Assembly (NCBI GenBank): GCA_963727445.1 | Contig: CAVSGI010000011.1 | Location: 1 to 64,000 of the forward strand | Origin: an uncultured delta proteobacterium | Lineage (GTDB): Bacteria; Myxococcota_A; Polyangia; Polyangiales; B10-G4 | DNA length: 64,000 nt | Direction: 5' to 3' | In this document: positions 3,508-35,330 of the stretch, piece by piece | How positions within the stretch are numbered: position 1 is the first letter of the stretch | Layout: each line of letters begins with the position of its first letter | Made by a program: the position numbers and the translations under genes | Notes under the pieces: model-generated | Databases searched by the model: none | Told to the model about the DNA's origin: nothing | What the model saw: the letters and a program-made list of their open reading frames with translations, nothing else

Positions 3508-4937
3508 TTGACGCGCGCGCATGGGTGTCAATCCTGTTGCTCGCGTCGTGTGCGGGGGCGGAACCGAACCCCTCGGACGCGGAGCGACCCTCGGCCCTCT
3601 TCCCCGTTTCGGTGTCCCGAGATGTCGATTTAGTGATCGTGGTCGACTCCACCGACGACGCCCTCACCCTTCGACAGGCGATCTCAGCGCGCCTGCCAGC
3701 GATGCTCGAAACCTTGATGTCCGGCGACTACGACGGAGACGGTGTTGGGGAGGAGGTCGTTCCGAACACCTTGCACGTGGCGGTGACTGCATCGGATGGG
3801 GTAGGGGAGGGGTCGGAGGTCCCTCTCACTTGCCAACAGTCCGACGCTGGACTCATCGCCGGCGCGACCTGCGATGGCGGTGGATGGGCTTCGCTCGACA
3901 GTCCTGCAGACATCGCTGCCGCCAGCGACACCTTGGCTTGCGCGCTGGCAGACGTCGGAGGTGGCTGTCGCGTGCGCCAGCCACGCGTCGCTCTCAACAA
4001 CCTTCTTCTCTTGTGGGGCGGGAGAGCTGACTTCCTTCGTCAGGGTTCGCTCCGCGTGGCGATGGTCATTCAGCTCGCGGATGACTGCAGTGCCGTCTCG
4101 CCCTATCCCTGGTCACCGGAGACATCCGGGCCGCTCGACTGCCCGATGGGTTCACCCGGGTCGGTCGTCTCTCAGGACATCTTTCGATTCCGTTTGCTGC
4201 CGATCGCGGGCGTTCCAGTCGCGCTCGTGGACACGGCCCGAGTCGAGGAGACGGCGCGGCCGAGTCCGAACGCGTGGTTTGGGGAGCCGTTCGATGATCC
4301 CACGATGGTGCGCAGCCTCGATCCGGTCGATCCGACCAGAGCGGCCGCGCTCTGCGACACACCGATTGGCTCCGTGGAGCCTGCCCCCGAGCTGGTCGAC
4401 GCCGTGCGCTGGTGGGGTCCGCCCGCCGATGTGGAGTCACTGTGTCGCTCCGACTTGCTGACCGCGCTGCAGAACTCCGCCGGACGCATTCCGGCCAGCT
4501 TTCGTGCCGCATGTTTGCCCTCCTGGGCCTCCAAGGAGCGCTGCTCGTTGGAGGAGGGGGCGCTCCCGTCGGAAGGGTGCCGCACTGAGGGCGCTGTACG
4601 GAGCACGGCCGACTCGTACAAATGCGTCCTTCCCTCCACCGCATGGTCGATCGACTCCACATCTATCGAGGCGCAGTCTCTTTGCGCCGGCACCGGATAC
4701 TCGGGCTTGCTACAGGTGGAAGGCGCGGATGACGACAGGATCTTTCACGTTGCATGCGATTTCCCCTGCGACGCTGACGAGGATTGTGACGGTTTGCCCG
4801 TCGGGACTGGAAGATGGGGTTGCGAACCAACGACTCGGACCTGCCGCCGAGCTTGCGATTTCGCGCGCCAGTGCGACGACGTCCACACGTGCGTCGACAG
4901 CCTGGGAAGTCGTGGCGTCTGCGTTCCTGAAGCATGA
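3504..4937 (+). CDS. Myxobacterial lipoprotein with vWA-like N-terminal region and Cys-rich C-terminus
   Basis: ATGA overlap with upstream stop; lipobox LLASC; DVDLVIVVDS motif. Confidence 0.7.
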   Translation: MIDARAWVSILLLASCAGAEPNPSDAERPSALFPVSVSRDVDLVIVVDSTDDALTLRQAISARLPAMLETLMSGDYDGDGVGEEVVPNTLHVAVTASDGVGEGSEVPLTCQQSDAGLIAGATCDGGGWASLDSPADIAAASDTLACALADVGGGCRVRQPRVALNNLLLLWGGRADFLRQGSLRVAMVIQLADDCSAVSPYPWSPETSGPLDCPMGSPGSVVSQDIFRFRLLPIAGVPVALVDTARVEETARPSPNAWFGEPFDDPTMVRSLDPVDPTRAAALCDTPIGSVEPAPELVDAVRWWGPPADVESLCRSDLLTALQNSAGRIPASFRAACLPSWASKERCSLEEGALPSEGCRTEGAVRSTADSYKCVLPSTAWSIDSTSIEAQSLCAGTGYSGLLQVEGADDDRIFHVACDFPCDADEDCDGLPVGTGRWGCEPTTRTCRRACDFARQCDDVHTCVDSLGSRGVCVPEA

Positions 4938-5055
4938 CGCTCCCACCTGAGGCAAGTCCCCAGACCCGGTGGGACACCACGAAGCGGCACGAAGCGCCTA
5001 GGGACGCTATTGCTTCGTGATTACCGAATCTGCGAATCGCCTCGTGGTGGCTTGA

Positions 5056-5098
5056 TCAGCTTGGGAAGCTGACACTCTACCAACTGAGTTACGCCCGC
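5056..5098 (-). tRNA. 5' half (43 nt) of tRNA-Gly(CCC); T-arm and 3' acceptor strand missing
   Basis: Minus strand reads GCGGGCG TA ACTC AGTTGGTA GAGT G TCAGC TTCCCAA GCTGA (acceptor 5' strand, D-arm, anticodon arm with CCC), then non-tRNA sequence with no GTTCGA T-loop. Confidence 0.85.
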
Positions 5099-5109
5099 GA
5101 GAGACGGGA

Positions 5110-5138
5110 TAGTTAGCTACTCGCCGATGGGGCGTCAA
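5110..5138 (-). promoter_or_regulatory. Possible sigma70-type promoter upstream of the tRNA half
   Basis: Minus strand TTGACG, 17-bp spacer, TAACTA, ending 11 nt before the tRNA 5' G; the -10 match is weak. Confidence 0.4.
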
Positions 5139-5257
5139 GGGGACTGGCGGGGCGCGGGAGTGGATAGATGGGATGTAAGCGGCTGGCCGCCACTGACGTG
5201 GTAGCCGTAGCCCCACAACCGTAAACGCGGTCAAGAGCCGCAGAGTGGAGGCCAGCC

Positions 5258-6288
5258 GTGGAACACATTGGCATCGATGTTCACAAGAAGACAAGTCAGG
5301 TCTGCATCCAGACGAGCGAGGGAGAGCTGCGGGAGCGGCGCGTGGCGACGACGCGCGATGCGCTGGCGAAGGTGTTCGCGGACCGCGCCCGGGCGAAGAT
5401 CCTGATGGAGGCGTCGACGGACAGCGAGTGGGTGGCGCGGTGGCTCGAGGAGCTGGGCCATGAGGTGATCGTGGCGGACCCGAACTTCGCGCCGATGTAT
5501 GCCACGCGAAGCCGCAAGGTGAAGACGGACCGGCGCGATGCGCGGGCGCTCTGCGACGCCTGCCGGCTCGGCGCGTACCGCCCAGCGCACCGCGCCTCGG
5601 ACGCGGCCCGTCATCGGCGAGCGCAGGTCGCGGTGCGTGATGCGCTGGTGCGCACGCGAACGAAGTACATCTCGCTCACCCGAGCGCTTGTGCGGCGCGA
5701 GGGCTTGTCGCCACGAAGCGGCGGAGCGGCGACCTTCGCGGCGCGCATCGAGGAGCTGTCACTGCCCGCCCACCTGGCGCTCGAGGTCGCGCCGCTGCTC
5801 ACGATGCTCGAGCAGCTCACCATGCAGATCCGCGACGCCGACAAGCGCCTCGCCGAGCTCGCCAAGGGCGACGAGACCGTCGAACGCCTGTGCACCGTGC
5901 CGAGCATCGGGCCGGTGACGGCGGTGACCTTCGTCGCCGTGGTCGACCAGATCGGTCGCTTCCACAACGCCTCACAAGTGCGCGCCTACCTCGGCCTGGT
6001 GCCCCGCGAGCTGAGCTCTGGCGAAAAACGGATGCGGGGCCACATCACGAAGACCGGCAATCGCCGTCTCAGGTCGCTGCTCGTCGAAGCGGCCTGGGGA
6101 TCTTTCGTCACAAACGACCGGAGACGAAGGCGCTACGCGACTGGACGGAGCGCATCGCCGCACGCCGCGGCAAGCGGATCGCGGCGGTGGCGCTGGCGCG
6201 CAAGCTCGCGGGGATCTTGTACGCGATGTGGCGAGACGGGACGCGCTTCGAGGCGACAGCGAGCCGTGAGGAGGCTGCTGCAGCCTGA
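5258..6288 (+). CDS. IS110 DEDD transposase/recombinase, frameshifted near 6096
   Basis: GIDVHK, EAST and KTDRRDA motifs; G4 run where copy 2 has G5; C-terminus continues in the 5890-6288 frame. Confidence 0.9.
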
Positions 6289-6299
6289 CCCGCAACCGA

Positions 6300-6530
6300 C
6301 GATGACCCGCTCTTCGTGAAGGGAACCGATTATGGTGGTCGAGCGCGATGTGCTGGCTGGCTGCTGTCGAACGCCGATGGATAGATGGCGCCGACCACCA
6401 CCGAATCCCACCCTGCGCCGCGGCCTCGATGCCGCCCCAGTCGAGCGCGAACAGAAGGCTGAACAACCCGTCACGTATGAGCGAAACGACGAACCCGAGC
6501 CGAAGCGAAGGAGACGTGCAACGACGTAGA
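6300..6530 (+). ncRNA. Putative bridge/seek RNA of IS110 copy 1 (boundaries approximate)
   Basis: Guide-like segments match the target flanks (6348-6358, 6378-6384) and the donor junction (6405-6410, 6451-6457); enclosing stem TGGTGGTCG/CGACCACCA shows a compensatory change in copy 2. Confidence 0.75.
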
Positions 6531-6898
6531 ACGAAAATCAGACAAACCTGTTGACCGGGGTGGCCGCTTCACAGAAGCCATCACATAGTCTCTCAGGATG
6601 CGCGAGCTGCACTGTCACGTCGGATTCTTCGGCGCGAGGGTATCGACATCAACGAGGCCGCAAACGGGATTTTTCTTCCCCGCTCGCGCCGGGTTGCTCA
6701 GCCGCCGACTACAACTCACTCAGTAATTCACACCAACCGGTACTACACTGAGCTTGGAAGACGACTTCAGGATGCGGCACCAGGCACGGTCCGGGAGGAG
6801 TTGCGGGCGATCGCCACTGAGATACCGGCCGGCGAGTTCCCGTACTAGAACTTCAACTTCGCAGACCTGCCTTTCCTTGCACAAGGACTACTTGGAGA

Positions 6899-7447
6899 AT
6901 GAACACCTTCCTGATCCGTGAGGATGTTGTGAAGTATCAGACTGTTATTCCCGCAGATGAGGCAAGCTGGTCTGAACTGCAGTTCGATGGAAGAGCAAAA
7001 GGGGAGTGGCAGAGGTTGGAGCTGCTGGTCTTCAATGCCACACAAGTTCGAGGAAACTTTTTCCATCTCGCGCCTGGGTGCTTGTGCTTCGACTCCGCAG
7101 CGTTGGATGCGCTGGAGGACCTTTTCGAGATGGCCGGTCAAGTGCTGGAGGCAAGTCTCGGCGAGGAGAAGGAGCCTGTCTTCATTCTGAACGTTACCGA
7201 AATCTATCCTGTCCTCGAACCGTCGCGAGCGACTTGGAGGTTTGACGCTCGCACCGGAAAGAGACTCACCCTTCAGAAGTATGCCTTTCGTGATTTCGGA
7301 TTCGGGGAGTCGACGTTATTCAAGGTTGCAGAGACGGTGCGCGGAGACGTCCTCACTGTGCAACGCGACGACAGAGAGTTGGGCGACGACTTCATTTCGC
7401 GCTATGAGGCAAGCGGGCTAACGGGTCTTACATTCGTCTCCTGCTAG
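6899..7447 (+). CDS. Imm11/DUF1629-like immunity protein
   Basis: 182 aa with FILNVTEIYPVL and STLFKV motifs, ending SGLTGLTF; lies directly downstream of the AHH toxin remnant. Confidence 0.7.
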   Translation: MNTFLIREDVVKYQTVIPADEASWSELQFDGRAKGEWQRLELLVFNATQVRGNFFHLAPGCLCFDSAALDALEDLFEMAGQVLEASLGEEKEPVFILNVTEIYPVLEPSRATWRFDARTGKRLTLQKYAFRDFGFGESTLFKVAETVRGDVLTVQRDDRELGDDFISRYEASGLTGLTFVSC

Positions 7448-7944
7448 GTAGGCAAGTTCTCCCGAACCAGGACGGAGCACTAGACTGTCAAAGGCCAAGC
7501 TCGAGCAGGGTTCGTAACTCAGGCCCGAAGAAACGGCGCCGACTATGCGGAGATCGCAAATCCGACTGGACATCAAAGCTCCGGTTTCCAGCCACCGTGT
7601 AAGCGGACCGGCTCCCCGGACGCCCGAAATTCCGCAGAAGTAGGAGTGTTCCGTCGCGCGCGCCAGATGACATAGCTCTGGATGGAGGGGTGGCTGCGCG
7701 CTCGACGGAACACAGTTTGAGCCGAGCCCAGTCGACGGGAGGTCCTATGGGGAAGTCACGCTTCGGAGCTGACGGTGAGCGTCCAAGCGGCGTGGAGAAT
7801 GCGGCGGCCGACGGCGCCGAGGAGGCACATGCGGAGGCATGAATGTCGCCCGACAGAGGACGCGGCGCACGCACGGGTGGTCGAGGACGGACCGGTACGT
7901 CTCCGGGTCGTGCCGGCCGAGCGCATGTGTTCGTGGCGAATGCG

Positions 7945-9120
7945 TCATGGAGGCGCCCTGACGTTGGGAAGCGGCGCAGCACAGAGCGCCATCGTCATCT
8001 CGTGGCAGCGCGGGCATCGTCTGAGGTCGATGCCGGTCAGTCGGCGGACGAGCGCGACGACAGCGTCTTCGTCCTCGGCCTCGTCGGCGTCGATGACGGG
8101 TGGCGGGGTCTCGACAGGCCTGCTCTTCGACAGCAGCGCCCGGGCCTGGGCGAGACGTCCGTGCACGTGGCGTGAAGAGAGCAAGCCGTAGTGGCGGATG
8201 CGGACGAATCCGTCGGGCAGGACGTGGCGAAGGAGGCGGCGCAAGAAGAGCGGCGCGGGCAGCGTGACCTTCTTCTGATGCCGGGTGCGAAAGGTGACGC
8301 CAGCATCGTCGACGGCGAGGATGCGGCGATTCGACAGGCCGATGCGATGCGTGTAGCGACCGAGGTAGGCGAAGACGGCGTCGGCGTCGCCGAAGGGGCG
8401 CTTGGCGTAGACGAGCCAGTCTCTGTCGTAGAGCGCGTCGAGATCGCCGGCATCGCGGAGCAGACCGCGCGCGTCGAGACGCCGGATGGCATCGAGGTAC
8501 TTACCGCGGAAGAGACGGCCGAGGACGCGCACCGGAAAGAGGAAGCCCTCCTGCGTCGCGCGCCATCGTCCATCGGCATCGAGTCCGCCGCCGGTGACCA
8601 CGCAGTGCAGATGCGGATGCCACGACAGGTCGCGGCTCCACGTGTGAAGCACGGCGGTGAGGCCGAGGTCGGCGCCGAGCCACCGGGGGTCGCGTCCGAG
8701 CTCGAGCAACGTGTCGGCCGCCACACGAAAGAGCGCATCGCACATCCGGCGGCGATTGTTGTACACGAGCGCGCGTAGCTCGGACGGCAGCGTGAAGACG
8801 ACGTGGAAGTGGTGGACGGGGAGCAGACGCGCCCGCCGCGCCTCGAGCCAGCGATGCTGAGCGAGCGCCTGACACTTGGGGCAGTGACGGTTGCGACACG
8901 AGTTGTACGACGGGCGCTCGTGGCCGCACCGCGTACACACGTCGAGGTGACCGCCGAGGGCGGCGGTCCGGCAGCGCATCCAGGCGGTCAGCACGCGTCG
9001 CTCGGGCGAGCCTCGTGGGTAGCGGGGGGCGATCTCGGCCGCGTGAGCCCGCGCGATCGCGCCCACTTCGAAACGAGGTCGCTCCGAAGACGCCGTGGCC
9101 GCCGAACAGGGCGGCGGCAC
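7945..9120 (-). CDS. IS91-family (Y2 HUH) transposase with N-terminal Zn-binding domain
   Basis: YNSCRNRHCPKC, HFHVVFT, HPHLHC (HUH), YLGRY and FVRIRHYGLL motifs. Confidence 0.93.
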   Translation of the reverse strand: MPPPCSAATASSERPRFEVGAIARAHAAEIAPRYPRGSPERRVLTAWMRCRTAALGGHLDVCTRCGHERPSYNSCRNRHCPKCQALAQHRWLEARRARLLPVHHFHVVFTLPSELRALVYNNRRRMCDALFRVAADTLLELGRDPRWLGADLGLTAVLHTWSRDLSWHPHLHCVVTGGGLDADGRWRATQEGFLFPVRVLGRLFRGKYLDAIRRLDARGLLRDAGDLDALYDRDWLVYAKRPFGDADAVFAYLGRYTHRIGLSNRRILAVDDAGVTFRTRHQKKVTLPAPLFLRRLLRHVLPDGFVRIRHYGLLSSRHVHGRLAQARALLSKSRPVETPPPVIDADEAEDEDAVVALVRRLTGIDLRRCPRCHEMTMALCAAPLPNVRAPP

Positions 9121-9126
9121 CGCGAC

Positions 9127-9989
9127 CTAGCCGAAGCGCTCGGCGGTCTCGGAGCCCAAGAGGTCGAGCGGGCTCGGCAACTGGCTGCGGCGGGCGTGTG
9201 TCAGGTGCACGTAGAGCACCGTCGATTCGATGCACGCGTGGCCGAGGATCAGCTGGACGCTGCGCAAATCGGCGCCAGCCTCGATGAGGTGCGTGGCGAA
9301 GCTATGACGCAGCGTGTGCGCCGTGACCGGCTTGTCGATGGCGGCCTGGGCGAGCGCCCGTCGCAGCGGAAGCGTGAACGCTGCCCTCGACAGACCTCCC
9401 CCTTTCGGCCGTGGCCCGGAAAGAGCCACTCACCTGCGGGTCGCACGCGCCGGTAGTAGTCGCGCAGCTGACGGAGCAGCCGCTTGGCGAGCGGCACCTG
9501 TCGCTGCTTTCCGCCTTTGGACGAGCGGACGTCGAGCACGTGCCGGTGGCTGTCGATGTCCGCCACTCGCAGTCGGCACGCTTCGGTGATGCGTAGCCCG
9601 GCCCCGTAACACAGCGTGGCGATCGTCTGATGGGTGACGGACTCGAACGAGGAGAGGAGCCGTTCGACCTCGGTGCCGCTGAGCACCAGCGGAAGCTTCG
9701 TCGGCACCGCCGCGAAGGGCAGCTGCATCACCCACTCGCTCTGCTTCAGCGTCGTGCCGTAGAAGAACCGCAGCGCCGCCGCGCACTGGTTTCGCGTCGA
9801 CGCCGACAGCCCCCGCTCCCGCGTCAACAGCAGCAGGTAGCGCTCCACCTCCTCGAGTCCCAGCTGCCGCGGGTCCTGCCCGAAGTGCTCCGCGAACTTG
9901 CGGACGTGGCGCAGGTACGCCGTGCGCGTCCCCGGACGAAACCCGCGCAACTCCATGTCCGCTTCCATCTTGATGACCAACTCGTCCAT
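9127..9989 (-). CDS. Tyrosine recombinase (IS91-associated, IntI/XerD-like), frameshift near 9400
   Basis: SAM-like N-terminus; [28 protein letters not shown] and Y motifs split over two frames at a G5 run. Confidence 0.9.
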
Positions 9990-10326
9990 CGCCTCGCTCC
10001 TTGCCTCGTCGCACCCGGTGTGGATGCGAGCGAACAGGATCGCGATGGCGAGGGAGGACCGAGCGCCGACCTTCAGAACCGCGGAGAAACCGCCCCGCAG
10101 GGGCTTGGTTGAAGGTATGATCTGTCGACTCCCTGCCCGGCCGGAGGGGAGCGGAGGCCGTTTGTGATGGCTATCAGCTATTCTTGGGCGACTACGATGA
10201 TGTAACCGCGGTAGATCCAGCAACATACCCGGGTGCGAACGGGACTTTCGCTATTTCTTGGGCAGATTCGACGCGGATATTTCCGCAGTTCGAGGTCGCC
10301 GCCGCCTACGTCAACGTCCCAAGTCC

Positions 10327-10821
10327 ATGACGTCAACAAGAAGTCTCATTGCGATTGCGGTGGCCGCGTTCGTCGCGCCTGCGGGTACAGGTTGTTCATG
10401 CGCGGCAAGCCATACGCTCGACGGCGGCGTCATGGACGCTGATGCCGCATCGGTCGAGGATGCATCGGAAGACGCCGACAACCACGATACGTCTGTGGAC
10501 GGTGGCGATGCGCTGGCCTGCAACCCATTCGGGCCATACTTTGGCGCATTGGAATGCACTCCTGAGATCGAGGAGGCTTGTGTCGAGTGGGCTCGCGCGG
10601 CCTGGGGAGGATCTGGGTACGTACACACCACCTGTTTCGATCATGGCGGCGTCAATGCCGCCTGTGATATTGGCGATTACTGTCCAGACCCTGGGTCGAG
10701 CGGTGCTCCTCCGCCCCCATGCCAGTGCACACGCACCCTCATTTGCCCGGGCGGATACCTGTGCGTGAGCGACACTCCGGACGGCCCTCGGCGCTGTGAG
10801 CCGGCGTGCGGCGCACCGTGA
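10327..10821 (+). CDS. Small Cys-rich secreted protein/lipoprotein
   Basis: MTSTRSLIAIAVAAFVAPAGTGC signal, Asp/Ala linker, Cys-rich tail. Confidence 0.7.
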   Translation: MTSTRSLIAIAVAAFVAPAGTGCSCAASHTLDGGVMDADAASVEDASEDADNHDTSVDGGDALACNPFGPYFGALECTPEIEEACVEWARAAWGGSGYVHTTCFDHGGVNAACDIGDYCPDPGSSGAPPPPCQCTRTLICPGGYLCVSDTPDGPRRCEPACGAP

Positions 10822-11033
10822 AGTGAGTGTCGGAGCCTTCCCCGCCGCGCAGAACGGCACTCACATCACCGGATAGATCACCGCGACGATCGAGCCCATG
10901 TCGCCACTACAAACCAAGCTCCGCGTTCGGAGATAGCGGATAGATGGGATGTAAGCGGCTGGCCGCCACTGACGTGGTAGCCGTAGCCCCACAACGTTGA
11001 TCGCGGTCAAGAGCCGCAGAGTGGAGGCCAGCC

Positions 11034-12065
11034 GTGGAGCACATTGGCATCGATGTTCACAAGAAGACAAGTCAGGTCTGCATCCAGACGAAAGAGGGAG
11101 AGCTGTGGGAGCGGCGCGTGGCGACGACGCGCGAAGCCCTGGCGAAGCTGTTCGCCAACCGCGCACGGGCGAAGATCGTGATGGAGGCGTCGACGGACAG
11201 CGAGTGGGTGGCTCGCTGGCTCGAGGAGCTGGGTCACGAGGTGATCGTGGCGGACCCGAACTTCGCGCCGATGTACGCCACGCGGAGCCGCAAAGTGAAG
11301 ACGGACCGGCGCGACGCGCGAGCGCTATGCGACGCCTGCCGGCTCGGCGCGTACCGCCCGGCGCACCGCGCCTCGGACGCGGCTCGGCATCGGCGAGCGC
11401 AGGTCGCGGTGCGTGACGCGCTGGTGCGCACGCGAACGAAGTACATCTCGCTCACCCGGGCACTTCTACGGCGCGAGGGGCTGTCGCCGCGAAGCGGCGG
11501 AGCGGCAACGTTTGCCGCGCGCATCGAGGAGCTGTCGCTGCCAGCGCACCTGTCGCTCGAGGTCGCCCCCCTGCTCGTGATGCTCGAGCAACTCACCGCG
11601 CAGATCCGCGACGCCGACAAGCGCCTCGCCGAGCTCGCCAAGGGCGACGAGGTGGTCGAGCGTCTGTGCACGGTGCCGAGCATCGGGCCCGTCACGGCGG
11701 TGACCTTCGTCGCGGTGGTCGACCAGATCGGCCGCTTCCACAACGCCTCGCAAGTGCGTGCCTATCTGGGCCTGGTGCCGCGCGAGCTGAGCTCGGGCGA
11801 AAAACGAATGAGAGGCCACATCACGAAGACGGGTAGTCGTCGCCTTCGGTCGCTGCTCGTCGAAGCGGCCTGGGGGATCTTGCGGCACAAACGACCGGAG
11901 ACGGCGCCGCTTCGCGAATGGACACTGCGCATCGCCGCGCGGCGCGGCAAACGAATCGCGGCGGTCGCGCTGGCGCGCAAGCTCGCGGGGATCTTGTACG
12001 CGATGTGGCGAGACGGGACGCGCTTCGAGGCGACCGTGAGTCGTGAGGAGGTGGCTGCGGCCTGA
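11034..12065 (+). CDS. IS110 transposase, intact (343 aa)
   Basis: DEDD RuvC-like motifs, GLVP..SSG and ARKLA motifs. Confidence 0.95.
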   Translation: MEHIGIDVHKKTSQVCIQTKEGELWERRVATTREALAKLFANRARAKIVMEASTDSEWVARWLEELGHEVIVADPNFAPMYATRSRKVKTDRRDARALCDACRLGAYRPAHRASDAARHRRAQVAVRDALVRTRTKYISLTRALLRREGLSPRSGGAATFAARIEELSLPAHLSLEVAPLLVMLEQLTAQIRDADKRLAELAKGDEVVERLCTVPSIGPVTAVTFVAVVDQIGRFHNASQVRAYLGLVPRELSSGEKRMRGHITKTGSRRLRSLLVEAAWGILRHKRPETAPLREWTLRIAARRGKRIAAVALARKLAGILYAMWRDGTRFEATVSREEVAAA

Positions 12066-12082
12066 CCTGCAAACGTGACGAA

Positions 12083-12315
12083 CGATGACCCGCTCTTCGT
12101 GAAGGGAACCGATTATGGTGATCGAGCGCGACATGCTTACTGGCTGCTGTCGAACGCCGACGGATAGATGGCGCCGATCACCACCGAATCCCACCCTGCG
12201 CCGCGGCCTCGAAGCCGCCCCAGTCGAGCGCGAACAGAAGGCTGAACAACCCGTCACGTACGAGCGAAACGACGAACCCGAGCCGAAGCGAAGGAGACGA
12301 GCCACGACGACGTAG
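12083..12315 (+). ncRNA. Putative bridge/seek RNA of IS110 copy 2 (boundaries approximate)
   Basis: Target guides CATGCTTACT (12132-41) and CGGATAG (12161-67); donor guides ATCCCA and ACAGAAG identical to copy 1. Confidence 0.75.
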
Positions 12316-13942
12316 AGCGCAAAATCAAAAACAACGCAGTTGACCGGGGTGGCCGCTTCACAGAAGTAACCACGAACGGCCTCGCGCCGCCGCAGGCGGT
12401 GTGACGAGTCGACAGATCGTACCTTGAACCAAGCCGCCTGCGGCGGCGGCTCCCTCGCGCCTGCCGCGTGTTATGCTGGACCCGCTGCCCATTCGGGGGT
12501 GCGGAATGCTCAGCCGACTCCTCTCAGGGCAGCTGGGAGGCAGCATTGGACAAGGGGTCCTACGAGCTCCGTGGCCTTCGTCCCCGCGGTCGAGAATAGC
12601 GTCCCGGTTCCTTGCACGTCCCACGCAGGTGGCGCGTGTATTCGTGCGCCCGCTGTGAGTCGGCGCTCGTCGAATTCCCCATAGCGCCTCTCCACCCGAA
12701 GCGGTCCCGGTAGGCTCGGCTCAAACTGTGTTCCGTCGAGCGCGCAGCCACCGCTGCCTGCAGTAGCGTCCGTCAAGGTGGTGTAAGAGGCCACCGCGTC
12801 ATCGTGGGCTAAGCGGTCATCGGCAGCGTCGGCTCCTCCGTGTCGTCGTTCGGCTTCCGGACCAAGTCCTCGAGAGAGCCGATGGTGAGGTAGCGCCTCA
12901 TGATGGCCCACTCGTCGTGCTGCTCCGCCAAGACGGCGCCGAGCAGACGAATGACAGAGTCGCGGTTGGGGAAGATGCCGACGACGTCGCTGCGGCGCCT
13001 GAGTTCCTTGTTCAGTCGTTCCTGCGGGTTGTTGCTCCACACGCGACGCCAGTGCGCCTCCGGGAAGCTCGTGAAGGCGAGCAGCTCCGGCGCGGCCTCG
13101 TCGAGGAGCTTCGCCGCGTCGCCGAAGCGCTCCTCGAGCTTGGAGACGACCTCGCTGTGCTGCGCCCAGACGGCGTCGGCGTTCGGCTGCTGGAAGATGC
13201 TGCGCACGAGCGTGGCGACGAGGCCCTGCGCGCTCTTCGGCACGCGCGTCAGCAGGTTCCGCATGAAGTGCGTCTTGCATCGCTGCCACGACGCGCCCGG
13301 GAGCACGGCGCCGACGGCGGCCTTCAGCCCCTCGTGCGCGTCGCTCACGACGAGCTTGACGCCGCTGAGACCTCGCGCGACGAGACCGCGAAGAAACGTC
13401 GTCCACGACGCTCCGTCCTCGACCGTGACGACGTCGACACCGAGCACCTCGCGGTGACCGTCGGCGTTCACGCCCGTCGCGACGACGACCGCGACATTGA
13501 CGATGCGGCCGAGCTCGCGGCTCTTGACGCACATCGCGTCGAGCCAGACGTACGGGTACGCCTCCGCATCCAGCGGCCGATTGCGGAACGCATCGACCTG
13601 CTCGTCAAGGCTCTTCGCGAGCTCGCTCACCTGCGACTTGCTGATGCCTTCGATGCCTGTTAACGAGCGACGTATCTGAGGTCGCTGCCCTCGATTTCGC
13701 GCACGAAGCGTGAGGGGAACGGGTTCGGCGAGGGGCCGATGGTCATCGCCGATTTCTTCGGTCGGCGGGGTCGTCCGGGCTCTGATGCGCGCCGGAGGCG
13801 GAGCATCGGTGCGGAGCCGGTCGCGTTAAATAGATGACGGGGGTGGGTTTGGCCGCCACTCCCCCGTCGTGCTCCGACGCAGCTGAATACGAAGCGGAGC
13901 ACTACACGAGTCGTCTACTTCGACGTCGACGTCAAGTCTTGG

Positions 13943-16733: not shown

Positions 16734-17490
16734 CAGCGCCGCGCCACGCACCATGATGGCCTTCGCGTCTCGGCAGCGCATCGCCGGACGCGAGGGCCAT
16801 CGCCTGCGTCAGCTGCTCGTCATGCCGCGAGGGGCATCAAGCAGGCTGCGTGAAAATCCCTCGGATAGCGTGCGCGGTAACAATGCCGAGCTGCTTCACG
16901 ACGGCGTCGACCTTCCGCGTCGATACGCCCTGCACCCACGTCTCGGCGATGACCGCCACGAGCGCCTTCTCGCTCCGCTTGCGCGGCTCGAGCAGCCAGT
17001 CCGGAAAGTAGCTCCCCTTGCGCAGCTTCGGAATCGCCAGGTCGATGCTGCCGACCCGCGTGTCCCAACGCCGTCGTCGAAATCCGTTGCGCTGATTCGT
17101 CCGCTCCTCGCTCCGCACGCCCCACGGCGCGTTGCACAGCCCCTCGGCCTCCATCTCCATCAGCGCCTCGGCCATGAACTGCACCATCGACCGGAGCTGG
17201 TCGCCGTCCGCTGCTTCGAGGTGCTTGCGCATCAGCGCCACTGCATCCATCGTCTTCTTCGTCTCGGTCATCGTCGTCCTCCTCGTTGGTTCGCAACTCG
17301 AAGATGACGCGATGGCCGAGACGTTAATAGGTCTCAGGCTTGATCACTCGTGCCTGCTCTTACACCACGCGATTGGACGTTACCCTGCCTGCACAGCTAC
17401 GTCATCTGGCGCGCGCGACGGAACACTCCTACTTCTCGGAAACTCGGGCGTCCGGTGAAGGGGTTGGCTTCCGTGGAGGCTGGAAACCGG

Positions 17491-17898
17491 AGCTACAAGA
17501 ACCCGAAGATCCTCGACGCCGAGGCGCTTCGCGCCGCGAGCGTCGCCCTCGCCGACGTCGACATCCGGAACGAGAGCTTCGAGGCGCTCCTCGAGAACGC
17601 CCGCCCCGGCGACTTCGTCTACTTCGATCCGCCTTACGCGCCTGTGAGCGAGACCGCGAACTTCACGAGCTATGCCCAGGACGGCTTCGGCCCGGACATG
17701 CAGGTGAAGCTGCGCGACGTCTACCGCGTGCTCGACCGGCGCGGCTGCAAGCTGATGCTCTCCAACAGTGACGTCCCCTTCATCCGCGACCTGTACCGCG
17801 GCTTCGAGATCGACACCGTGGCGGCACCCCGCGCCGTGAACTGCGACGCGACCCGCCGCGGCAAGGTCAGCGAGGTCGTCGTCCGCAACTACCAGTGA
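17491..17898 (+). pseudogene. DNA adenine methylase (Dam/D12 class), C-terminal part only
   Basis: YKNPKI, DFVYFDPPY, FTSY and LSNS motifs; 5' part replaced by the element B end. Confidence 0.85.
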
Positions 17899-31229: not shown

Positions 31230-31587
31230 TTGGTCCATTATCGCGACGTGGAGCTCGTTGGGGGACGGTTCGAGCTGCGAGGCGAAGCCGGCGCCGGAGC
31301 CATGGCAAAGGTCTTTCGCGCTCACGACCTCCACACCGACGAGACGGTCGCCGTCAAGATCCTCCACCCGGGCTCGGACACCAACTACCGCCGTTTCGAG
31401 CGGGAAGCGAGCGTGCTCGCCACGCTTCGCACCCCGGGCGTCGTGCGTTACGTGGCCCACGGGCGCGCGCCCGATGGCCAGCCGTTCCTCGCGATGGAGT
31501 GGCTCGATGGGTTCGACCTCGAAGAGTGGCTGCGGGATCGCACGTGCACCGCGGATGAGGTGCTGGTGCTCGGCTGCGCGTTGGCGA
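31230..31587 (+). pseudogene. Ser/Thr kinase N-lobe, truncated by a repeat unit
   Basis: GAGAMAKV, VAVKIL, RFEREA and LAMEWL motifs, then abrupt switch to repeat sequence. Confidence 0.85.
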
Positions 31588-31682
31588 GCTCCGGTTTCCA
31601 GGCCTCGACGGAAGCCAACCCCCTCACCGGACGTCCGAGTTTCGCAGTAGGTATGATCTGTCGACTGGCCCGCGCGGGGCCA
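31588..31682 (-). repeat. Empty repeat unit C (both end regions of element A fused at AGG)
   Basis: GCTCCGGTTTCCAG..TCACCGGACGTCCGAGTTTCGCAGT joined to AGGTATGATCTGTCGACT (18/18 identical to 10113-10130). Confidence 0.85.
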
Positions 31683-32630: not shown

Positions 32631-32783
32631 ATGTGACCGCTCACTCGTGACAGATGACGAAGCCGCCGGAGCTCCAACCTGGATAGACGTCCACCTCGAT
32701 CTCGTTCGGCGTACCCGTAGGCCAGATGAGGCCCTGATCACAGGTGCGTCCAGCCGCGGCGAAGGTGAGGTTCGCTCTGCCCG

Positions 32784-32921
32784 GCTCCGGTTTCCAGCCT
32801 CCACGGAAGCCAACCCCCCCTCACCGAACGTCCGAGTCTCGCAGTAGGAGCGATTATGTAGCCCCTGGCTCACGGGAGGATGGCGGAAGGCCGTTCATGC
32901 TCGTTCATGCTGACTATCAAC
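32784..32921 (-). repeat. Complete minimal repeat unit D with a 10-bp internal duplication
   Basis: GCTCCGGTTTCCAG...GGC CGTTCATGCT CGTTCATGCT GACTATCAAC. Confidence 0.85.
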
Positions 32922-34730: not shown

Positions 34731-35236
34731 GGCGGTACGCGCCCAGCCGGCAGGCGTCGCACAGCGCCCGCGGATCGCGCCGGTCCGTCTTCACTTTGCG
34801 GCTTCGCGTGCCGTACATCGGCGCGAAGTTGACTCGACCCTTCGGGTCGTCGACAGGTCTGTACCCGCGCGGCTCCGTGGACTTGCGTCCACTCCGCTTC
34901 GCACGGCTACAGCCATGTTCGGGTCCGCCACGATCACCTCGTGACCCAGCTCCTCGAGCCAGCGAGCCACCCACTCGCTGTCCGTCGACGCCTCCATCAC
35001 GATCTTCGCCCGTGCGCGGTTGGCGAACAGCTTCGCCAGGGCTTCGCGCGTCGTCGCCACGCGCCGCTCCCACAGCTCACCCTCTTTCGTCTGGATGCAG
35101 ACCTGACTTGTCTTCTTGTGAACATCGATGCCAATGTGCTCCACGGCTGGCCTCCACTCTGCGGCTCTTGACCGCGATCAACGTTGTGGGGCTACGGCTA
35201 CCACGTCAGTGGCGGCCAGCCGCTTACATCCCATCT
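34731..35236 (-). mobile_element. IS110 copy 3, 5' remnant with an 89-bp insertion
   Basis: Near-identical to 10942-11360; left end GTTGATAG|ATGGGATG; truncated next to the REP-like hairpin. Confidence 0.9.
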
Positions 35237-35330
35237 ATCAACCTAGTCGACCGCATGGAGTGCGTTCGCATTCTTAGCTTGCGCCGGTACTCCTGCGTGA
35301 CGGCTATCCTCGGCGCAGCTCACTGGATGG

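What the first reader, a model, noticed from the sequence alone, without database searches (positions are those of the whole stretch)
6300..12315. IS110 bridge-RNA guides co-vary with each copy's own target site
Seen: copy 1 sits in TGGAT[AG]CCATCACAT. Its 3' non-coding end has TGGATAG (6378-84) and ATGTGCTGGCT (6348-58; 10/11 match to the reverse complement of core plus right flank). Copy 2 sits in CGGAT[AG]TAACCACG and carries CGGATAG (12161-67) and CATGCTTACT (12132-41; 8/10). The donor-junction guides ATCCCA and ACAGAAG, matching CACAGA-AG-ATGGGAT, are unchanged. The enclosing stem has a compensatory pair: TGGTGGTCG/CGACCACCA versus TGGTGATCG/CGATCACCA. Established: IS110/IS1111 elements use a bispecific guide RNA. 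Inference: this is natural retargeting caught within one genome, with guide order right-target, left-target, right-donor, left-donor.
Basis: partly seen in the sequence, partly recalled or inferred. Interest (0 to 1): 0.82.

Follow-up and report, generated by a model that had tools for sequence, protein, structure and literature searches.

The report
Two retargeted guide-RNA insertion sequences
Two closely related lineages of a jumping gene in one bacterial genome carry slightly different built-in guide RNAs, and every copy sits at the DNA site that its own guide matches, which is a clean natural example of a mechanism already known from laboratory work.

Summary
Window 5168-6577 and 10944-12366 are two copies of an IS1111-group, IS110-family insertion sequence. 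Each carries a ~176-nt bridge/seekRNA gene downstream of the recombinase gene.

The genome holds 8 copies in two lineages, A with 3 copies and B with 5, which differ by 120 substitutions. All 7 copies with both flanks sit in their own lineage's site, and the eighth fits on its one readable side. Five of the 9 A/B differences in the RNA fall in the 18 guide nucleotides. Two more form the compensatory stem pair, and a G-U intermediate survives in two copies.

Guide-to-flank matching also holds across 58 related loci from other genomes and 46 from metagenomes. In both sets, 0 of 10,000 permutations reached the observed score. The fold shows covariation. The guide order is the one published for IS1111 elements.

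The mechanism is known (Durrant 2024; Siddiquee 2024), so this is a new member of a known kind. The lineages are long diverged, so the retargeting event itself is not caught. The targets are two variants of the end of a ~125-nt repeat linked to IS91-type elements. No expression data were obtained.

The parts
5168..6577 (+). Copy 1, lineage B: complete IS, 1410 nt, counting one copy of the AG core
   Evidence: Junctions read. Boundaries. An empty paralogous site is seen.
5258..6288 (+). Copy 1 recombinase gene, broken by loss of one G from a G-run near 6096
   Evidence: Pfam PF01548 + PF02371.
5161..5167 (+). Copy 1 left target half plus core, TGGAT-AG
   Evidence: Identical to the left-target guide at 6378-6384.
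6578..6586 (+). Copy 1 right target half, CCATCACAT
   Evidence: With the core, it is complementary to 6348-6358 at 10 of 11 positions.
6308..6483 (+). Copy 1 bridge/seekRNA gene. Outer stem P0 is 6308-6322 paired with 6466-6483.
   Evidence: The 5' and 3' tails form a duplex better than shuffled tails in 64 of 65 family members.
6333..6400 (+). Target-binding module. Stem P1 is 6333-6346 paired with 6388-6400 and encloses RTG, hairpin P2 (6359-6375) and LTG.
   Evidence: Folds. Consensus and covariation. The pair G6338-C6395 is A-U in copy 2 and G-U in the C21 copies.
6348..6358 (+). Right-target guide (RTG), complementary to the top strand of the AG core plus the right flank
6378..6384 (+). 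Left-target guide (LTG), the same sense as the left flank plus AG. It is followed at 6385-6388 by ATGG, which equals the first 4 nt of the IS.
6405..6410 (+). Right-donor guide ATCCCA, complementary to TGGGAT at the IS left end
6415..6449 (+). Stem-loop P3 between the two donor guides
6451..6457 (+). Left-donor guide ACAGAAG, identical to the IS right tip plus core
10944..12366 (+). Copy 2, lineage A: complete IS, 1423 nt
11034..12065 (+). Copy 2 recombinase gene, intact, 343 aa
   Evidence: Pfam. NCBIfam NF033542 'IS110 family RNA-guided transposase', 277 bits against a cut-off of 140. Full-length similarity to the ISCro4 and IS621 recombinases.
10937..10943 (+). Copy 2 left target half plus core, CGGAT-AG
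12367..12374 (+). Copy 2 right target half, TAACCACG
12091..12266 (+). Copy 2 bridge/seekRNA gene. RTG 12131-12141, LTG 12161-12167, RDG 12188-12193, LDG 12234-12240. P1 is 12116-12129 paired with 12171-12183.
   Evidence: Same register as copy 1, with no indels between them in this stretch.
5174..5183 (+). Left subterminal inverted repeat of copy 1 (TGTAAGCGGC). Its partner is 6563-6573. In copy 2 the pair is 10950-10959 and 12352-12362.
   Evidence: Read. Relatives have a 9-bp perfect pair.
10163..10177 (-). Uninterrupted B-like site, CTGATAG followed by CCATCACA, at the start of the target repeat upstream of the IS91-type genes

Best explanation
These are two lineages of one IS1111-group, IS110-family insertion sequence.

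Components:
- Each element encodes a DEDD/serine bridge recombinase of 343 aa.
- Downstream of that gene, each encodes a ~176-nt bridge RNA (seekRNA).

RNA fold:
- An outer stem P0 closes the whole RNA.
- Stem P1 encloses the target-binding module. [quoted passage not shown]
- A small hairpin, P2, follows.
- The donor guides sit on either side of stem-loop P3. They read the abutted ends of the excised circle (CACAGA-AG-ATGGGAT) in the same way.

Action: recombinase bound to this RNA brings circle and target together and exchanges strands at AG. The element is inserted without a duplication beyond the shared AG.

The two lineages: A and B have identical ends and donor guides, and recombinases that are 95% identical. 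They differ at 5 of the 18 target-guide nucleotides. Each lineage therefore goes to its own variant of the end of a ~125-nt repeat, CGGATAG/TAACCAYG for A and TGGATAG/CCATCACA for B.

Shown here: the sequence matches, their covariation within the genome and across the family, and the conserved covarying fold. Inferred from published work on relatives: that the RNA is made, that it binds the enzyme, and that a circle is the donor.
For: Protein family:
- Pfam PF01548 + PF02371.
- NCBIfam NF033542, 277 bits.
- Full-length match to the solved bridge recombinases ISCro4 (3e-15) and IS621 (3e-14). The GIDV, MEA, KTDxxDA and SSG motifs are aligned.

Within the genome:
- There are 8 copies and all 8 carry the RNA.
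- The left guide equals the left flank at 7 of 7 positions in all 7 copies that have a left flank.
- The right guide matches its own site at 8-10 of 11 positions. Against the other lineage's site it matches at 5-6 of 11.
- C21a and C21b are identical, as are C12 and C9a, yet each pair sits in different flanks. Both lineages therefore moved recently.

Across the family, genomes set:
- 67 of 79 related loci have the homologous RNA.
- In the 58 of 71 rows with both flanks, the own-flank score is 8.3 of 11 (RTG) and 6.0 of 8 (LTG). Against other loci's flanks it is 5.6 and 3.3.
- 0 of 10,000 permutations reached the observed total.

Across the family, metagenome replicate:
- 71 of 80 loci have the RNA and 46 are usable.
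- Own-flank scores are 8.6 of 11 and 6.0 of 7, against 5.6 and 3.0 for other loci.
- 0 of 10,000 permutations reached the observed total.

Donor guides covary with the elements' own ends, again with 0 of 10,000 permutations reaching the observed value.

Structure:
- 88% of cells are paired, against 34-50% when partners are slid.
- 16 of 26 pairs show changes on both sides, and 0 of 500 shuffles reach the observed values.
- P0 is supported in 64 of 65 sequences.

Literature: the guide order matches the IS1111 rule in Siddiquee 2024. The RNA lies in the right end, as Durrant 2024 report for IS1111 elements.
Against: - There is no evidence here that the RNA is made. The two RNA-library contigs that touch the element cover only 10940-11082.
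- No circle-junction or excision joint was seen in the four runs laid.
- No Rfam family matches the RNA. No sigma-70-like promoter or terminator brackets it.
- Pairing is imperfect. The fourth base right of the core is mismatched in all 8 copies. Copy 2's right guide has 3 mismatches in 11 to its own site.
- Three perfect type-B sites are empty.
- The within-genome copies lie in a repeat family, so some may have spread together with their flank and not by separate insertions.
- In the family tests 13 of 71 and 25 of 71 rows were dropped for lack of a recognisable end. A few kept rows match poorly: L051, L069, L055, L065 and L027 score 4-5 of 11.
Confidence: 0.9

Rival explanations
1. History rival; the mechanism is not disputed. 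The two lineages did not diverge in this genome. They had already specialised on different repeat variants and came to share a cell by separate transfers, so nothing was 'caught in the act'.
For: - The lineages differ by 120 substitutions and 13 gap columns spread along the whole element. Within a lineage the differences are 0-4, or 17-20 for the outliers C11a and C24.
- Near-identical type-A-like elements lie in several wetland and marsh metagenomes behind other left flanks. One contig carries yet another guide variant.
- The same RNA family occurs in many phyla.
Against: - Both target variants are ends of one repeat family resident in this genome.
- Lineage A shows ongoing small steps here: a G-U then A-U stem pair and a C/T change inside the guide.
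- No relative closer than 70% protein identity was retrieved from either collection, so no outside source is identified.
Confidence: 0.4
2. The within-genome agreement of guide and flank is inherited and not selected anew. Copies spread together with the adjacent repeat, by recombination between repeats or as part of a larger mobile unit, so 8 of 8 is far fewer than 8 independent events.
For: - C9a, C9b and C12 share an identical right flank for about 60-118 nt.
- Copies and repeats lie in clusters with about 4.5-kb spacing on C9 and C21.
Against: - Left flanks differ immediately beyond the 8 conserved nucleotides in every copy.
- C21a and C21b are identical yet have different right-flank subtypes.
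- Copy 1's site has an uninterrupted paralogue with exact junctions.
- The rule holds in 104 loci from other genomes and metagenomes.
Confidence: 0.1
3. Site choice is made by the protein or by the structure of the target repeat. The short matches in the non-coding end are a by-product or chance.
For: - The targets lie at the edge of a GC-rich structured repeat.
- A 2026 preprint reports a target stem-loop as an extra determinant for ISPpu10 (abstract only).
Against: - Matches covary position by position over 7 nt on the left and about 10 nt on the right, in two independent locus sets.
- Flank positions beyond the guides carry almost no information across the family.
- Guide enrichment of the lineage differences has P = 6e-4.
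- Relatives have been reprogrammed experimentally (Siddiquee 2024 abstract).
Confidence: 0.03

Closest known systems
IS1111-group elements with a 3' seekRNA: ISEc11, ISPa11, ISKpn4, ISPst6 (Siddiquee et al. 2024, Nat Commun; PMC11187229)
   Same: - A DEDD recombinase of 330-350 aa with the GL-P----SG motif.
- Subterminal inverted repeats.
- A long non-coding region downstream of the gene.
- An RNA with a top-strand match placed 5' of a bottom-strand match.
- Site-specific insertion with no duplication beyond the shared core.
   Different: - A different clade. No nucleotide match in the plasmid collection, and the relatives found lie in Polyangiales, Acidobacteriota, Gemmatimonadota and Rokubacteria MAGs.
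- A different target.
- The RNA here has not been shown experimentally.
IS621 bridge RNA and recombinase (Durrant et al. 2024; Hiraizumi et al. 2024; PDB 8WT6)
   Same: - A homologous recombinase over its full length.
- Two pairs of guides that read both strands of target and donor around a dinucleotide core.
- Natural guide-target covariation.
   Different: - In IS621 the RNA lies in the left end and the bottom-strand guide comes first in each loop. Here the RNA lies in the right end and the order is reversed.
- Here the donor guides flank a stem-loop inside a junction closed by a long outer stem. They do not sit in a second internal loop.
- The core is AG, not CT.
IS4321/IS5075 and the IS1111 elements that target integron attC sites (Partridge and Hall 2003; Post and Hall 2009; seen only as reference-list entries)
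   Same: IS1111-type elements whose specific target is a repeated end or recombination site of another mobile element.
   Different: The target here is the start of a ~125-nt repeat found next to IS91-type transposase and Xer-like recombinase genes. No integron integrase reaches its family cut-off in this genome.
ISPpu9 with its Ssr9 RNA, and ISPpu10, in Pseudomonas putida (PMC12288879, start of the abstract only; preprint 10.64898/2026.03.19.712850, abstract only)
   Same: A multi-copy IS110-family element inserted into copies of one structured repeat in a single genome, with the RNA gene downstream of the transposase in ISPpu9.
   Different: Those reports concern one lineage and one target. 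Here two co-resident lineages have split a repeat family between them.

Membership tests
IS110 family, IS1111 group | Recombinase with an N-terminal DEDD (RuvC-like) domain and a C-terminal Tnp domain | tested here: met
   - PF01548 (7e-20) and PF02371 (1e-23).
- NF033542, 277 bits against a cut-off of 140.
- Full-length alignment to ISCro4 and IS621.
IS110 family, IS1111 group | Conserved catalytic Asp/Glu/Asp/Asp and the Ser of the G(L)-P----SG motif | tested here: met
   - GIDV, MEA, KTDRRDA and GLVPRELSSG align with the same motifs of ISCro4.
- The motif is as described in Siddiquee 2024.
- The residue roles are those given for IS621 in Hiraizumi 2024.
IS110 family, IS1111 group | Subterminal inverted repeats of 7-17 bp set back from the tips | tested here: met
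   The pair is 5174-5183 with 6563-6573, and 10950-10959 with 12352-12362. It is 10-11 bp with one indel. Relatives have a perfect 9-bp pair.
IS110 family, IS1111 group | The longer non-coding region lies downstream of the recombinase gene | tested here: met
   301 nt (12066-12366) and 289 nt (6289-6577) lie downstream. 90 nt lie upstream.
IS110 family, IS1111 group | Site-specific insertion with no duplication beyond a shared core dinucleotide | tested here: met
   All copies sit in one of two defined sites. The empty paralogue of copy 1's site has a single AG.
Bridge RNA / seekRNA | Guides for both strands of the target and of the donor junction, in the IS1111 order | tested here: met
   The order agrees with Siddiquee 2024.
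Bridge RNA / seekRNA | Guides covary with target and donor across natural relatives | tested here: met
   In each test, 0 of 10,000 permutations reached the observed value.
Bridge RNA / seekRNA | Conserved secondary structure maintained by compensatory change | tested here: met
Bridge RNA / seekRNA | A discrete RNA is made and binds the recombinase | not testable with these tools
   The RNA-library contigs cover only 10940-11082. There are no raw reads for this organism.
Bridge RNA / seekRNA | A circular intermediate with abutted ends and a junction promoter | tested here: inconclusive
   - No joints appear in the four runs laid.
- By eye, TTGACC at 6551-6556 and 12340-12345 lies 17 nt before GAAG|AT across the junction.
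- TTGAC is kept at that distance in relatives.
Any Rfam family | A match to a curated covariance model | tested here: not met
   No hit on the RNA at E <= 1 in 4500-13000. No hit at gathering score in the whole window.
IS1111 elements that target integron attC sites | The target is an attC site of an integron cassette array served by an integron integrase | tested here: not met
   - The best TIGR02249 matches score 128 + 82 bits against a cut-off of 265, and they skip model positions 182-240.
- The recombinase beside the C12 repeat array scores best as generic XerD/XerC, below every cut-off.

The most novel reading that the evidence does not exclude
The two co-resident lineages form a natural specificity and cis/trans experiment. 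They have identical ends, identical donor guides and 95% identical recombinases. Relatives' RNAs work in trans when overexpressed. Yet no copy sits in the other lineage's site: 7 of 7 with both flanks, plus 1 read on one side only. No near-cognate repeat site with one or two left-half changes is occupied, 0 of 11. Perfect sites are mostly filled: 3 of 3 for lineage A and 5 of 8 for lineage B. This would mean that in its native setting the bridge RNA acts preferentially on the element that encodes it, and that a single mismatch in the 7-nt left guide blocks insertion. A second unreported detail is that the left guide runs on for 4 nt into a copy of the element's own first bases. The RNA strand therefore equals the finished left junction over 11 nt. 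This could be a bottom-strand counterpart of the published handshake guides.
Probability: 0.3. Interest if true: 0.55.

Novelty: new member of a known kind. Interest (0 to 1): 0.33.

Why it matters
The finding adds a well-documented natural clade of IS1111-type bridge RNAs. About 130 loci carry the RNA, a covarying four-stem fold is defined, and the guide footprints are mapped: 7 nt on the left, including the core, and about 10 nt on the right.

It also adds a pair of near-identical natural systems that differ at only five guide positions. Such a pair is a ready-made substrate for three tests:
- how many guide changes are needed to retarget;
- which mismatches are tolerated;
- whether the RNA works in cis.

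It does not change the known mechanism.

Tried and rejected
- Rfam, at E <= 1 on 4500-13000 and at gathering score on the whole window, found nothing on the RNA. The only hit was a sub-threshold tRNA-like match at 5031-5098, and ARAGORN found no tRNA there.
- The promoter and terminator scan of 10900-12420 found no promoter, and terminator-like sites were no more frequent than in shuffles.
- Sequencing runs: 20 of the 22 listed runs hold at least part of the element, 3 of them half or more of its sampled words. Of the four laid, none shows a joint. The two RNA-library contigs stop at about 11080, so they say nothing about the RNA.
- The plasmid collection gave no nucleotide match.
- The metagenome scan gave no relative above 70% protein identity, so no fine-grained series of guide intermediates could be built. 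The loci were used as a replication set instead.
- The integron hypothesis for the target repeat was rejected for lack of an integron integrase above its cut-off.
- A conserved target determinant beyond the guide footprint was sought. Information content in the right flank beyond about +10 is near zero in 43 loci.
- My first Pfam query for the integrase used the wrong frame (9430-10014) and found nothing. The match lies in the frame of 9249-10226.
- My first estimate of the IS starts, 5167 and 10938 in note 1, was off. The correct starts are 5168 and 10944.
- Single-sequence folds pair the right-donor guide into a stem, and their z-scores are only -0.6 and -2.5. I rely on the alignment-based structure instead.

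Full report
**What is there.** The stretch 5168-6577 (copy 1) and the stretch 10944-12366 (copy 2) are two copies of one insertion sequence. Each begins ATGGGATG and ends CACAGAAG. Each has a subterminal inverted repeat and a 343-codon gene. A non-coding tail of 289-301 nt follows the gene.

The protein carries Pfam DEDD_Tnp_IS110 and Transposase_20. It scores 277 bits on NCBIfam NF033542, 'IS110 family RNA-guided transposase', against a cut-off of 140. It aligns over its full length with the solved bridge recombinases ISCro4 (3e-15) and IS621 (3e-14), with the catalytic motifs in register. Copy 1 has lost one G from a G-run near 6096 and is frameshifted.

**Checking the observation.**
- In copy 1, TGGATAG at 6378-6384 equals the left flank plus the AG core at 5161-5167.
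- In copy 1, 6348-6358 is complementary to AG plus the right flank at 10 of 11 positions.
- In copy 2, CGGATAG at 12161-12167 equals 10937-10943.
- In copy 2, 12132-12141 matches its right flank at 8 of 10 positions.
- ATCCCA and ACAGAAG are unchanged between the copies and match the abutted ends.
- The stem pair is G-C in copy 1 and A-U in copy 2.

**All copies in the genome.** The window is contig C11 of a 9.47-Mb assembly in 27 contigs. BLAST finds 8 near-full copies and a few 5' fragments. A family HMM finds the RNA region in exactly these 8 places. They fall into two lineages.
- Lineage A is copy 2 plus two identical copies on C21.
- Lineage B is copy 1, three copies on C12 and C9 that differ by 0-2 substitutions, and a more diverged copy at the start of C24.

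A and B differ by 120 substitutions and 13 gap columns. Their proteins are identical at 325 of 343 residues.

Every lineage-A copy lies between CGGATAG and TAACCA(C/T)G. Every lineage-B copy lies between TGGATAG and CCATCACA. The left flank of the C24 copy is cut by the contig end.

The left guide equals the left flank at 7 of 7 positions in all 7 copies that have one. The right guide matches its own site at 8-10 of 11 positions, and the other lineage's site at 5-6 of 11.

The two C21 copies keep G in the 5' arm of the stem but already have T in the 3' arm. They are therefore a G-U intermediate between G-C in lineage B and A-U in copy 2.

Of the 9 lineage differences in the 178-nt RNA region:
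- 5 lie in the 18 guide nucleotides (P = 6e-4);
- 2 form the compensatory pair;
- 1 lies in a hairpin loop;
- 1 lies in an internal loop of the outer stem.

An uninterrupted paralogue of copy 1's own site on C21 shows the exact junction and a single AG.

**The family.** A scan of one genome per species returned 79 loci encoding relatives at 55-68% identity. They come mostly from Polyangiales, Acidobacteriota, Gemmatimonadota and Rokubacteria MAGs. Of these, 67 have a homologous RNA region downstream of the gene.

I aligned 68 such regions with the three distinct sequences of this genome (alignment A1, 71 rows). I located each element's ends by the conserved subterminal repeat, independently of the target guides. 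Fifty-eight rows had both flanks and 13 were dropped.
- The right guide matches its own right flank at 8.3 of 11 positions on average, against 5.6 for other loci's flanks.
- The left guide matches at 6.0 of 8, against 3.3.
- None of 10,000 permutations of guide-to-flank assignment reached the observed total.

Position by position, the left guide reads 7 nt including the core, and the right guide about 10 nt. Both donor guides also covary with the elements' own ends.

The same test on an independent set of 80 metagenome loci used 46 of them, since 71 had the RNA. Scores were 8.6 of 11 against 5.6, and 6.0 of 7 against 3.0. Again 0 of 10,000 permutations reached the observed total.

A few kept rows match poorly. 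L051, L069, L055, L065 and L027 score 4-5 of 11. At least L027 has a duplicated right end that misled the end-finder.

**Structure.** RNAalifold on A1 gives three helices:
- P1, which encloses the target guides;
- P2, a small hairpin between them;
- P3, which lies between the donor guides.

Counting pairs for this structure gives 88% of cells paired, against 34-50% when partners are slid. Sixteen of 26 pairs have changes on both sides, and no shuffle of 500 reaches the observed values.

A fourth, long-range helix, P0, joins the sequence just upstream of P1 to the sequence just after the left-donor guide. I tested 66 of the 71 A1 rows. L050, L091, L054, L083 and the second L055 hit were left out as poor or duplicate rows. 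One further row could not be parsed. In 64 of the remaining 65 sequences this duplex is more stable than the mean of shuffled tails, -25.8 against -16.8 kcal/mol, although the arm sequences differ widely between clades.

The RNA is thus about 176 nt long, 6308-6483 in copy 1 and 12091-12266 in copy 2. Single-sequence folds recover P1 but are otherwise unreliable.

**Comparison with what is known.**
- Siddiquee et al. 2024 show that IS1111 elements have the long non-coding region downstream. They show that it yields a seekRNA essential for transposition. In IS1111 elements the top-strand match lies 5' of the bottom-strand match, the reverse of IS110 elements. The RNA can be supplied in cis or in trans (abstract, sections 6, 9 and 13, and passages).
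- Durrant et al. 2024 found the mechanism through covariation between RNA loops and 5,511 targets and 2,201 donors. They place the RNA in the right end of IS1111 elements (passages).
- Hiraizumi et al. 2024 define handshake guides next to the top-strand guides (passages).
- A 2026 paper shows that the same complex carries out excision (abstract and passages).

Everything seen here fits that picture, so the element is a new member of a known kind. Two library searches, 'IS1111, IS91, target' and 'bridge RNA, IS110, in cis, in trans', returned no title or abstract start in their listings that names an IS91-linked target or co-resident lineages. I did not read those papers in full.

**The target.** Both sites lie at the start of a structured repeat of about 125 nt. 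The genome holds 28 full copies and more partial ones, clustered on a few contigs. In the window, one copy of its first half lies just upstream of a tyrosine-recombinase gene, split over two frames, and an IS91-family transposase gene (NF033538, 392 bits). These occupy 7945-10226 on the minus strand. On C24 a full copy lies just past the 3' end of another IS91-type gene. On C12 an array of six lies beside a Xer-like recombinase gene. No integron integrase reaches its cut-off, and the repeat matches no Rfam family. I could not settle what the repeat is.

**Site census.**
- Lineage A has no empty perfect site, and its 3 occupied sites are all there are.
- Lineage B has 5 occupied sites and 3 empty perfect sites.
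- Six repeat copies differ from the A site. Four read CGGGTAG-TAACCATG, with one change in the left half. One has a further change in the left half and one a change in the right half. All 6 are empty.
- Five B-like sites begin CTGATAG. Four lie in full repeat copies, and the fifth, at window 19268, diverges after AACG. All 5 are empty.

The ends and donor guides of the two lineages are identical, and relatives' RNAs act in trans in assays. The absence of any cross-insertion therefore hints at cis-preference. The numbers are small, and the copies may not be independent.

**Limits.**
- No expression or circle data were obtained.
- The switch between guides is not caught. The lineages are old relative to their recent bursts.
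- No close outside relatives were retrieved that could order the steps.

Noticed in passing
Window 10113-10170 (-), 12371-12424 (+), 17408-17493 (+), 31583-31669 (-), 32782-32895 (-), 7578-7664 (-). Also G000 contigs C12, C24, C21, C20, C9, C5.: A structured repeat of about 125 nt. The genome holds 28 full copies and more partial ones. Its variable first 16 nt hold the IS target and its last ~46 nt are highly conserved. It occurs in same-strand arrays 0.8-7.5 kb apart, bounding segments that hold unrelated genes such as an Mrr endonuclease and ORFs without a family. It also lies beside IS91-type transposase and Xer-like recombinase genes. It has no Rfam match, and no integron integrase reaches its cut-off. 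What it is remains unexplained.
   Followed up: partly
Window 7945-10226 (-): An IS91-family transposase gene at 7945-9120 (NF033538, 392 bits), preceded by a tyrosine-recombinase gene. The recombinase's N- and C-terminal parts lie in different frames (9249-10226 and 9127-9429), so it looks frameshifted. An intact paralogue is on C22. From recall, some IS91-family elements carry such an upstream integrase gene; no call here checked this.
   Followed up: partly
Window 6385-6388 and 12168-12171; alignment A1 columns 101-104: The 4 nt after the left-target guide (ATGG) equal the first 4 nt of the element, so the RNA strand equals the finished left junction over 11 nt. Across 58 loci the first of these positions matches the element's first base in 93% of loci, against 59% for other loci. 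For example, every locus in the clade whose left end starts with T also has T there. The other three positions add little. This may be a bottom-strand counterpart of the published handshake guides.
   Followed up: partly
Window 34731-35239 (-): A 5' fragment of a lineage-A copy, 99.7% identical over 323 nt. It is followed by an 86-nt insert, then 100 nt at 93%, and is then truncated. It lacks the RNA region. Its left flank ends TTGATAG. A B-like site, AGGATAG followed by CCGTCACG, lies about 60 nt upstream.
   Followed up: partly
L027:3150-3340 (Sandaracinaceae MAG): The last ~105 nt of this relative's right end are present twice in tandem. The first CACAGAAG tip is joined to the sequence that normally follows the internal left-donor guide. 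This looks like recombination between the tip and its internal look-alike.
   Followed up: no
L055:3092-3225 and 3859-3992: Two identical copies of the RNA region lie 767 nt apart downstream of one recombinase gene.
   Followed up: no
Window 12136 and 12138, as read in run X2: A 1184-nt metagenome contig of a near-identical element (29 differences) carries C>T and T>G inside the right-target guide. This is a third natural guide variant. Its own flank could not be read fully from the table.
   Followed up: no
Window 6551-6556 and 12340-12345: TTGACC lies 17 nt before the tip. In a circle it would face GAAG|AT across the junction, as in the junction promoters described for this family. TTGAC is kept at that distance in relatives. 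This was judged by eye only.
   Followed up: no
Window 5031-5098 (-): A tRNA-like match below the Rfam gathering score (26.2 bits against 29) lies just left of copy 1. ARAGORN calls no tRNA there.
   Followed up: yes
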